Shown here: piece by piece, positions 26,501 through 29,500 of the stretch | Layout of the letters: each line of letters begins with the position of its first letter | Numbering within the stretch: position 1 is the first letter of the stretch | Assembly: GCA_977017645.1 (NCBI GenBank) | Contig: OZ360235.1 | Location: forward strand, 20,646,001-20,710,000 | Source: Torpedo marmorata | Taxonomy: Eukaryota | Direction: 5' to 3' | Length of the DNA stretch: 64,000 nt | Translations under genes and position numbers: made by a program | Notes under the pieces: model-generated | What the model saw: only the letters and a program-made list of their open reading frames with translations | Databases searched by the model: none | Told to the model about the DNA's origin: nothing

Positions 26501-29500
26501 AAACTTCACTTGCATGAATATATAAACCTTAAAGCATTTTACTTTATTTTCAGTCACATTCTTTGAAAACATTTAACTGTCGCTGGATCTGCAGGTTCTT
26601 CCCCTTCCATGGAGCCACCCGAAAGATGAACCGTAACATTTTAGATAATTAACCCCCTCCAAGTTTACAGATAAAGTGTCTGACTAGAGCGACTCTTACT
26701 AAGCAGGGATAAGGAGACACTTTAAGAGAGTCACCCCAACGACGAGCGGCATCAACCAGCTCTTCATCCTGGGCGACACCATTGCTGTTTCACACAACTT
26801 TATTCCAACAGCTGCTACGAGCAAAGCACGGCCAAGGCACTCCGCTGGCTGAATATTTGCTCCCATCTTCACCAAAGGTTTATGTGTTACTTCAGAGAAC
26901 ATTTACTTTTATGATTTTAAACTTACATATTTTTTACCTATTATTTTATTCTTATTTATTTTAATTTTTAAAATTTATTTTCCTTGATTTTTTTGCCAGT
27001 TTCTTGAGGCTGCAGGTTGCTTGAATTCCAGATACCAGGGGTTTTACTGTATTTCAGTAAAATCTGGTGCACTGGTTCAAGGAGTAATCAAAACAGTGAA
27101 TGAACTTTTGTTCTTTTATCTCAGGAATCCAGGAAACAAAGGAACAAAGATACTAATCTACAGAAGTAAACACGAAAATCTGTAGACACCGTGGTTGAAG
27201 TAAAAAACACAAAAGCTGGAGAACTCAGCAGGTCAAACAGTGTCTTTTATGTAGCAAAGGTAGAAATACATAACCGACGTTTCAGGCTTGAGCCCTTCAT
27301 CAAAGTATGAGACCTTTCCCACCCCCCTTCCCCCCTCACTCCTTTGTTCGGACGCCTGCCGGCATTTTCTCATACTTTAATGAAGGGCTCAAGCCTGAAA
27401 CGTCGGTTATGTATTTCTACCTTTGCTACATAAAAGACACTGTTTGACCTGCTGAGTTCTCCAGCTTTTGTGTTTTTTACTAATCTACAGAGCCTTTGTT
27501 GATGCCTGGATTCAGCTTTGGACAGCACACCTCAAGATAAAGAGTCAACGATTAATTCTAGTGTTTTAAGGGTTAGTTTTCTGGGAGAAGGTCAACACAT
27601 ATTTGCCTCAGTCCAGAAGTTCCAAGGGTGATCTAACTGAGTGCTTGAAATGATAAATGATAGGATGGTGAGAGATGAATTATTTCCTCTGGTGATAAAT
27701 CCAGTAACACATCACCTTAAAGATGAGATGGGGATGAAAGCAGAACGTGATCTCTTGCACAGATTTGTAACTCACCATAAAGACTGGGAGAACTGAACAT
27801 TTCAGGATATAAACCAATATGTTTTAGGCAAGAATATTTAGGGGTTAAACCGAAAGGCAAGTAAGTGTATTTAGGGTACAGATCTCCCATGGTCTGATGA
27901 CATGTCAGGACAAGAAATTATAAGAGTAAGTCATATGACCCATTGAACTAACTCCTCCATCCAATTCAACAACATATTGATGCTAGTGGTTGAGTGTTCT
28001 CTGTAATCCTCGAAGCCTTTAACATCGCAATAGTCCTGAACTATAACAAACAGAAAAAATATGCGGTAGAGAATTCCAAAAAATCTTTGTCATCCCAGTT
28101 CCAAGTGGGTGACAAATTCTGAGACTCCCTCATCAGGGGGCACAGACTCACTGCATCTACTTGGTCAAGATCTCTCTGAACCTTAAATTTTGAAACATTT
28201 AAAATTTGTGGCGGGATTGAGAGATTGGATGCAAGATAGGTTTTCCCCTGGCGGTGGAGTCTACAGGTACGGGGGGAGAGGGGGGGGGGGGTGGCAGGTC
28301 ATACTCTCAAAACAAGGAGTAGGCCATCTTGGACTAAAGCGAGAAATTCTCTGCCAGTGGGGGCTGTTGTGACTCAGGAGAAAGAGTACATAAATGGTGA
28401 AGAGGTGCAAGATCATCCATGATCTTGTTGAATGGTAGAGGAAGATCAAGGGGATGAACGGCTCACTCCAGCTTCAATTTCTTATCTGAATATGAATATT
28501 GAAATTGAACAATATAATGCTCCAACATAGCATTCTTAAAGAGATTGCATTATCTCAGTGTTCATTCATCATTAATTTTTTTTCAGGCAGTACTTTGAAC
28601 TCCTTCAGCATACTGGTTTCTGAGTTATAATTTAATTGCTCAGAATTTATCCAAATTGCGTCTGAAAGACTGCTTTCATAGGAAATGGGTTGCATTCAAA
28701 ATTCTCCCAGACAAGTATGAGATAGGACAGGAGAGGCATTCACATAAAACCTAAACGACTTGATTATGTTTTCCCCATCTATGCAATTACTTCATTAATT
28801 GTGGTCCTGATCATCTGTTTTACTTTGTAGACAAACAATTTTGCAGATCTAAGGAATCACTGTGACAAGGTTGGATTGCATAAAAGGAAAACATGTTTCC
28901 ACCTGTGTGGTTGTGATTGTTAAGTAGACTCACAGAAAACCAAAATGGTGTTGAAAGAGAAGATTCGCTGTGATCTGGTTGAATGGCAAAAATAAAGGGG
29001 TGTGCAGCAAAATTGGAAAAATACTATTTTTTTTTTACAAATGGAAAAAATGCAATTGAACTAAATCAGTGCTCATAGAACAGTACTGGGATAAAGAGGA
29101 AAAATAACAGTTTAAGTTGGAAATAAACAGAGAAAAGAAAGAAATAAAAGGAGAAAAAAGTTCTTTGATGAAAGACACAGTTTAATCACAGTCTAATAAC
29201 TAAAAACGTTGCTGTACAAATTAAAGCAACCAACTTAAAATTTAATTTTGAACAATGTTATCAAGATTTTCAGCAATATGATCTTGTTTGTTCAAACTTA
29301 AATTTATATTTTTTCGTGTATCTGAAACATTACAACATATTTTGGAGTCTGCAATCTGATGTTGAGAGAAACATTTGCATCGGCAAAGTTCTTAATGGTT
29401 GTTTTGCACTATTGACAAACATTTGTTGAATTAATCCTTTGAACAAAGATATTCTGAGATCCATTTCTACCAAAATTGTAAAAGTATAAAGGAAGTCTTC

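What the first reader, a model, noticed from the sequence alone, without database searches (positions are those of the whole stretch)
27151..27491. TSD-flanked fold-back retroelements carrying minimal hammerhead-like motifs on both strands
Seen: copies at 13441, 27165 and 61536 share one asymmetric design. A longer left arm is followed by a variable spacer and an inverted right arm that always ends at GTGTTTTTA(C). Each whole unit is bounded by a 14-16-bp direct repeat, so it inserted as one event. The arms of the two long copies contain CATAC(C/T)-TTGATGA-A-GGGCTCAAGCCC-GAAA-CG-TC-GGTTATG. Established: Penelope-like elements carry minimal type I hammerheads with a palindromic stem III (here ACGT) that act as dimers. 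Inference: this is a non-coding Penelope-mobilised family that presents a ribozyme motif in sense whichever strand is transcribed, while the long stem could sequester it. The core deviates from canonical (U at C3, extra A before stem II), so activity is unproven.
Basis: partly seen in the sequence, partly recalled or inferred. Interest (0 to 1): 0.7.

Follow-up and report, generated by a model that had tools for sequence, protein, structure and literature searches.

The report
Double-primed Penelope retrotransposon fold-back insertions
This mirror-image stretch is two back-to-back, shortened ends of a very common protein-coding Penelope-type jumping gene rather than a separate ribozyme family, and it was likely written in one insertion when both cut DNA strands copied the element's RNA from two start sites about 35 bases apart.

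Summary
The three fold-backs and their 14-16-bp duplications are real, but they are not a non-coding family. Both arms are 5'-truncated 3' ends of an RT + GIY-YIG Penelope-like element of Neptune type (54,602 exact copies of a 28-base hammerhead core). The 'spacer' is the element's own upstream sequence. The focal junction occurs once in 6.2 Gb; all 36 resolved tail/tail-less fold-backs have different junctions and 22 carry ORF sequence. Inverted end + tail + TSD and opposite-strand minimal hammerheads are published PLE anatomy. What the census adds: 36 of 39 pairs join one tailed to one tail-less arm, TSDs peak at 14 bp (30 of 36 at least 13 bp; 0 of 1260 controls), both ends show about 2 nt microhomology to the RNA, and the tail-less arm usually reaches further (26 of 36). 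This points to priming at both nicks, made afresh at each insertion (inferred). The U3-G8 core is family-wide; the focal + strand motif has lost G5; cleavage is untested. The scan found this same pattern before in other genomes (all 8 earlier notes shown).

The parts
27151..27164 (+). left target-site duplication (14 bp)
   Evidence: exact repeat at 27478-27491
27164..27312 (-). tailed arm: element 3' end, -149..0, including the ~35-bp tail (27164-27198)
   Evidence: 98% to natural coding copy L032
27269..27309 (-). minimal type I hammerhead motif (U3-G8 core, G10.1-U11.1 in this copy)
   Evidence: activity untested
   Evidence: 98% to L032
27371..27411 (+). hammerhead motif with G5 changed to A at 27379, predicted inactive
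   Evidence: core position numbering as in PMC7151607 passage
27478..27491 (+). right target-site duplication; first 4 bases also match the element (microhomology)
13425..13573 (.). short fold-back of the same family: TSD 13425-13440/13558-13573, tailed arm 13441-13520 (-), tail-less arm about 13520-13557 (+), no hammerhead
61522..61854 (.). older fold-back (86-87%): TSD 61522-61535/61841-61854, tailed arm 61536-61695 (-, -161), tail-less arm 61704-61840 (+, -174..-40)
62753..62900 (+). solo, non-inverted tailed copy (-147..0), no long TSD (best exact repeat 6 bp)
62274..62397 (-). older solo copy (76%)
57537..57636 (-). old solo copy (72-73%)

Best explanation
The unit is two head-to-head, 5'-truncated 3' ends of a coding Neptune-type Penelope-like retrotransposon inside one 14-bp target duplication, likely made afresh at insertion by priming on both strands of a staggered cut. 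Shown: arm identity with the coding element, unique junctions, one tailed plus one tail-less arm, 13-17-bp TSDs, short microhomology at both outer ends and at the inner junction. Inferred: the GIY-YIG domain (probably a dimer) nicks the two strands about 14 nt apart; one 3'-OH primes at the tail-end start site and the other at the similar GTGTTT..TACTTC site about 35 nt upstream; both cDNAs stop early, their 3' ends join through 0-6 nt of complementarity, and fill-in completes the palindrome and the TSD. Hammerhead motifs on both strands are a by-product of each arm carrying the pLTR. Whether the two cDNAs come from one RNA, two pLTR copies of one RNA, or two RNAs of one source is not settled.
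For: Upstream of the arm the sequence runs into an open frame with RT (YIDD), DKG, CX4CxxC linker and GIY-YIG motifs (Pfam RVT_1 E 1.9e-6 and GIY-YIG E 6.7e-4, both just under the curated cut-offs); 14 of 29 loci hit by the ORF 5' part carry the pLTR + tail directly upstream and 2 of these also an inverted copy. Census of 54 head-to-head pairs: 36 tail + tail-less, 1 tail + tail, 2 tail-less + tail-less, 15 unresolved (8 ran off the fetched DNA, 7 had one end broken or interrupted); 36 of 39, p 4e-8; without the tail-biased set 23 of 25, p 2e-5. TSD at least 13 bp exact in 30 of 36, mode 14 (15 of 36); 0 of 1260 cross-paired controls. Microhomology to the RNA continuation: mean 1.9 nt at the tail-less end (26 of 26 scored) and 1.8 at the tail end (21 of 26 scored; 5 had extra bases) against 0.38 and 0.28 in controls. 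36 of 36 junctions differ; focal junction 1 match versus 54,602 for the core 28-mer. In vitro, a Poseidon PLE cuts and extends both strands, starts RT at two adjacent internal sites that define the tail, and is modelled as a dimer (PMC11167929, parts 1-2 read).
Against: No biochemical test for this family; the in vitro work is on another clade and saw no difference in start site between strands, which does not by itself predict the strict one-tail pairing. Three pairs break the rule (one composite whose tailed arm runs on into the ORF 5' part, two old 84-90% pairs, none with a TSD). Of the 36 resolved pairs 27 came from query-selected loci; only 9 (plus 13441) are from unbiased DNA. Shared subfamily alleles between arms could partly reflect gene conversion after insertion. 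No empty site was obtained.
Confidence: 0.75

Rival explanations
1. A dedicated non-coding fold-back family, copied as a unit by Penelope proteins, built to show a ribozyme on either strand.
For: Recurrent design and TSDs; the motif's core is kept across subfamilies.
Against: Focal junction unique; 36 of 36 junctions differ and 22 of 36 include ORF sequence; among the first 100 genome hits of the core 28-mer, 9 of 10 head-to-head pairs within 3.5 kb lie 1.1-3.4 kb apart (read); only 4 of 10 unbiased fold-backs have two whole motifs; 22 of 37 unbiased arms are not in fold-backs.
Confidence: 0.04
2. Single priming followed by snap-back: one cDNA folds on itself and copies itself, and the far end is joined to the target by microhomology.
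For: Microhomology at the tail-less end and at the inner junction fits; 10 of 36 pairs have the loop on the tailed arm; arms usually share alleles (79 concordant, 7 discordant, 32 expected).
Against: A tail-primed cDNA that snaps back must leave the loop on the tailed arm, yet the tail-less arm reaches further in 26 of 36 (8 of 9 unbiased). At L016 five A-to-G changes in the tail-less arm are absent from the same positions of the tailed arm.
Confidence: 0.12
3. Two separate insertions, or later recombination, placed a second copy inverted against the first.
For: PLEs are said to insert into or beside earlier copies (PMC6765202 passage); some arms differ at common polymorphic sites (7 of 86).
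Against: One TSD encloses both arms (27 of 28 young pairs have a repeat of at least 11 bp, against 14 of 44 young tailed solos); arms are of the same age and share rare variants (8 seen, 0.82 expected); 10 head-to-head and 0 tail-to-tail close pairs among the first 100 hits.
Confidence: 0.06

Closest known systems
EN+ Penelope-like insertions with an inverted 5'-truncated copy and a 30-40-bp tail at one end (Craig 2021 PMC8557442 Fig. 2 legend; Adineta Pen2a/Pen2 in Arkhipova 2013 PMC3846280; D. virilis form C in Schostak 2008 PMC2377424)
   Same: Inverted terminal copy of variable size, tail on one of the inverted ends, whole unit within a TSD, partial tandems, heavy 5' truncation.
   Different: TSD here peaks at 14 bp (8-10 bp in the Adineta examples); copy number is about 1e5; many units are only the two truncated ends with no full-length copy between them.
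[quoted passage not shown]
   Same: Extra nucleotide between 9 and 10.1, G10.1-C11.1, palindromic 15.2-16.2, no stable stem III; pairs on opposite strands 100-700 bp apart were already noted in Schistosoma as probable truncated PLEs.
   Different: Core is U3 with G8 (a wobble), not C3-G8 or the reported U3-A8; stem II has only 4 pairs. A natural U3/G8 core is mentioned for a halophile ribozyme (PMC7151607 passage).
Poseidon of Anolis (PAc) in vitro, Frangieh 2024 PMC11167929
   Same: Two adjacent internal RT start sites defining the tail; both strands cut and extended; predicted dimer.
   Different: Other clade; the paper does not treat inverted insertions (the word 'inverted' occurs once, for a blocking group) and reports no primer-RNA homology, whereas about 2 nt is seen here.
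L1 twin priming (recalled, not tested here)
   Same: Both target nicks prime cDNA; inner junction with short microhomology; one TSD.
   Different: In L1 the inverted part copies a different, upstream part of the RNA; here both arms copy the same stretch, giving a palindrome.
Non-LTR retrozymes (bioRxiv 10.64898/2026.07.22.740005)
   Same: Non-coding, hammerhead-bearing pLTR derivatives of PLEs in vertebrates.
   Different: Retrozymes are head-to-tail tandem units amplified as such; these are head-to-head one-offs.

Membership tests
EN+ Penelope-like element | One ORF with RT and C-terminal GIY-YIG endonuclease | tested here: met
   813-aa open frame in L032 (5'-truncated; first ~30 aa come from flank) with RVT_1 and GIY-YIG hits below curated cut-offs, motifs visible; ORF 5' part in L031 and L194
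EN+ Penelope-like element | CCHH motif with two Cys inside the GIY-YIG core | tested here: met
   CxxC between the two halves of the motif and downstream His residues, read; definition from PMC8557442
EN+ Penelope-like element | pLTR formed by partial tandems | tested here: met
   14 of 29 ORF-5' loci have the 3' end + tail directly upstream
EN+ Penelope-like element | Inverted 5'-truncated copy and 30-40-bp tail at one end | tested here: met
   36 of 39 resolved pairs
Neptune clade | [quoted passage not shown] | tested here: met
   CX4CxxC in L032; also present in Nematis per PMC8557442
Neptune clade | RT phylogeny groups with Neptune rather than Nematis | not tested
   no reference PLE proteins were fetched
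Minimal type I hammerhead | Core CUGANGA / GAAA / UH with stems I and II | tested here: inconclusive
   All positions present except C3 (U in 158 of 160 arms; 63 U, 6 C of 73 looser matches); position 7 varies freely; no Rfam hammerhead match at E up to 5; monomer fold does not form stem I
Minimal type I hammerhead | Self-cleavage as dimer | not testable with these tools
   No pile-up of 5' ends at the predicted cut (2 of 37 arms at -118..-103)
Non-autonomous fold-back family / retrozyme | Fixed unit re-copied to many loci | tested here: not met
   junction found once in 6.2 Gb; 36 of 36 junctions differ
Named Repbase/Dfam family | Match to a database entry | not testable with these tools
   no repeat library offered

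The most novel reading that the evidence does not exclude
One Penelope protein dimer assigns its two RNA start sites to the two nicks of a 14-nt staggered cut, so that every double-primed event pairs a tailed with a tail-less arm; the tens of thousands of such palindromes are an in vivo record that explains the long-unexplained inverted ends and one-sided tail of PLEs, and the pile-up of 5' ends at -149..-137 marks the RNA start at the hammerhead's 5' edge.
Probability: 0.5. Interest if true: 0.55.

Novelty: new member of a known kind. Interest (0 to 1): 0.33.

Why it matters
The architecture is known, so the finding as written is ordinary. Its value is as data on an open point: Craig 2021 calls the tandem/inverted structures the result of 'still undefined features' of the PLE cycle. 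A young, very abundant family gives hard rules (one tail per pair, 14-bp stagger, about 2 nt primer homology, tail-less arm usually longer) that a mechanism must meet and that the existing in vitro PLE assay can test. Roughly 5e4 fold-backs (10 in 1.264 Mb; 95% range 2.4e4-9e4 if the sample is typical) are also a large potential source of double-stranded RNA.

Tried and rejected
Rfam scan of the window: no hammerhead family at E up to 5; only below-threshold microRNA models on the hairpins, rejected as generic stem matches. A 96-base core query found nothing because its words are too common. Two other loci 100% identical to the focal right arm (L238, L240) were checked as possible copies of the same unit: different junctions and TSDs. 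The G5-to-A variant sits in one arm only in the selected pairs; not used as evidence of two templates because selected for it and recurrent mutation explains it. Sequencing runs: no RNA holder listed. Empty-site test on public runs was not obtained. Paper searches: 'Penelope' + 'twin priming' gave 3 listings, none on PLE mechanism by title or abstract start (not read); searches found no paper on this family or on strict tail pairing; C3U searches gave no rate data. Lunse 2017 and Pyatkov 2004 were not held and may bear on U3 variants and on inverted-end models; supplements were not opened. Target preference for other repeats was not tested.

Full report
Observation. The window lies at G000:C48:20646001-20710000 of a 6.2-Gb genome. 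The three units are real: direct repeats of 16 of 16 bp (13425-13440, 13558-13573), 14 of 14 (27151-27164, 27478-27491) and 13 of 14 (61522-61535, 61841-61854) enclose head-to-head inverted arms. The motif occurs six times at up to three mismatches, never in 100 shuffles. None of the four long arms matches the quoted motif exactly; the focal + arm has A at G5 (27379) and both focal arms have T at C11.1.

What the arms are. The 148-bp solo copy has at least 40 identical genome matches (all 40 scored of 368 candidates). Upstream these run through a pyrimidine-rich UTR into a reading frame. L032 holds an 813-aa open frame with DKG, YIDD, a CX4CxxC linker and a GIY-YIG domain with internal CxxC; Pfam gives RVT_1 (E 1.9e-6) and GIY-YIG (E 6.7e-4), both just under the curated cut-offs. 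By the definitions in PMC8557442 (passages) this is an EN+ PLE of Neptune or Nematis type; no tree was built. The ORF 5' part has 2,513 first-look candidates; 14 of 29 such loci carry the 3' end with tail directly upstream, the partial tandem that forms a pLTR, and 2 of these also have an inverted copy. An exact 28-base hammerhead core occurs 54,602 times. Numbering below is from the tail end (0) of L032.

Census. I used 1,264,000 bases of contiguous, unselected DNA from five contigs (window included) and query-selected loci: 37 of 40 (two segmental duplicates and the window copy dropped), 26 of 28, 29 of 30 and 29 of 30 (self and repeats dropped). The script found 54 head-to-head pairs: 36 tail + tail-less, 1 tail + tail, 2 tail-less + tail-less, 8 cut by the edge of the fetched DNA and 7 with one end broken or interrupted. 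The 13441 copy was missed by the script and is tail + tail-less by eye. 36 of 39 mixed pairs gives p 4e-8 against independent choice, 23 of 25 (p 2e-5) without the tail-biased set. Exact TSDs of at least 13 bp enclose 30 of 36 (mode 14 in 15; 33 of 36 with one mismatch), against 0 of 1260 cross-paired flanks. Among young copies 27 of 28 fold-backs but only 14 of 44 tailed solos have a repeat of at least 11 bp (the solo set includes 5' pLTRs of tandems and uncertain 5' boundaries). The tail-less arm ends at -43..-32 in 33 of 36.

Not a unit family. All 36 junctions differ, 22 of 36 pairs have an arm reaching into the ORF, and the focal junction 28-mer occurs once in the genome. The focal 'spacer' is element sequence -204..-150 on the right arm. 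In unselected DNA 4 of 10 fold-backs have a whole hammerhead on both arms, 1 on one arm, 5 on neither (rows plus 13441), and 22 of 37 arms are not in fold-backs. Among the first 100 listed hits I count 10 head-to-head pairs within 3.5 kb (9 of them 1.1-3.4 kb apart), 1 tandem and 0 tail-to-tail.

Mechanism (inferred). Both outer ends look like primed ends: the target matches the RNA just 3' of the start site by 1.9 nt on average at the tail-less end (26 of 26 scored) and 1.8 nt at the tail end (21 of 26; 5 had untemplated bases), against 0.38 and 0.28 by chance. Both start sites share the motif GTGTTT..TACTTC. Inner junctions are blunt or overlap by a few bases in 27 of 36. The tail-less arm reaches further upstream in 26 of 36 (p 0.011; 8 of 9 unselected), which snap-back of one tail-primed cDNA cannot give. 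This fits priming at both nicks of a 14-nt staggered cut, in line with the in vitro behaviour of a Poseidon PLE: both strands cut and extended, two adjacent internal start sites, predicted dimer (PMC11167929, parts 1-2 of 4 read). That paper saw no strand difference in start site and no primer homology, so the strict pairing seen here is not predicted by it.

One or two templates. Arms agree at common non-CpG polymorphic sites (79 concordant, 7 discordant, 32 discordant expected) and share 8 rare variants where 0.82 are expected, with 104 unshared: same source lineage as a rule, gene conversion not excluded. Against a single template stretch in every case: of 180 arms screened only two carried A-to-G clusters, both in insertion L016, and the five changes in the tail-less arm (-143..-117) are absent from the tailed arm, which has six elsewhere. 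This looks like ADAR editing of two different RNA stretches; it is one case.

5' ends. Of 37 unselected arms, 11 begin at -149..-137, none at -182..-151 and 2 at -118..-103 (Poisson p 4e-6 against the downstream rate). Genome-wide 22-base counts agree: 93,402 at -111..-90 (inflated by at least one satellite), 58,228 at -172..-151 and 61,583 at -222..-201. The site is the 5' edge of hammerhead stem I and resembles an initiator (recalled consensus); an RNA start or an RT stall would both explain it. The focal tailed arm ends there (-149) while its partner reaches -204. I ran this test after reading earlier scan notes.

Hammerhead. In 160 arms U3 is in 158 and G8 in 159; position 2.1 is U or C opposite G. 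In 73 looser matches from unselected DNA position 3 is U in 63 and C in 6, position 7 takes all four bases, and distant relatives show altered but pairing stem I (by eye). The extra base before stem II, the palindrome and opposite-strand pairs are in PMC4209133 (parts 1-2 of 4), which also reports U3-A8 and low activity even as dimers; a natural U3/G8 core is cited in PMC7151607 (passages). Rfam finds no hammerhead. A fold-back transcript would bury both motifs in a 114-bp stem; the monomer does not fold into the motif alone. Activity is untested.

Known or new. PMC3846280 (parts 1-3 of 5) describes inverted pLTR, 31-bp tail on one inverted end and 8-10-bp TSD as the typical Penelope structure; PMC8557442 (passages), PMC2377424 (passages) and PMC8969392 (passages) say the same. 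My searches found no paper giving the strict pairing or a twin-priming account, in a library that lacks subscription journals and two key papers. The scan itself has noted this pattern many times: 388 findings hold the search words, and all 8 shown reach the same reading in other genomes; a sequence look-up found none for this stretch.

Noticed in passing
L016 (G000:C40:117568232-117571379), locus 1501-2136: Fold-back with ADAR-like A-to-G clusters in both arms at different positions (5 and 6 changes); the only such arms among 180 screened.
   Followed up: partly
G000:C1:705,8xx-741,3xx (L288 514-2298, L289): A 27-bp satellite of at least 35 kb whose unit is the element's -116..-92 stretch, starting at the hammerhead palindrome and predicted cut site.
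   Followed up: partly
window 62753-62900 and 10 other arms in unselected DNA: SINE-like class of ~145-bp copies whose 5' ends pile up at the 5' edge of the hammerhead.
   Followed up: partly
window 27379; L238-L267: G5-to-A change in the hammerhead core recurs at many loci (965 candidates); in the selected fold-backs it is in one arm only. Hotspot or minor subfamily not resolved.
   Followed up: partly
L001-L003 (G000:C52:60.18-60.36 Mb): Three near-identical copies with the same 5' flank about 83-99 kb apart: a segmental duplication holding a pLTR that continues into the ORF.
   Followed up: no
L031 oriented 3790-4200; L194: The N-terminal part of the ORF holds a tandem array of a ~17-codon GC-rich repeat followed by a proline-rich stretch.
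   Followed up: no
window 32143-32652 (-): Old (76-78%) fragment of a related PLE including the ORF end.
   Followed up: no
window 34617-34994: Another hairpin-like stretch that drew weak microRNA model matches; not examined.
   Followed up: no
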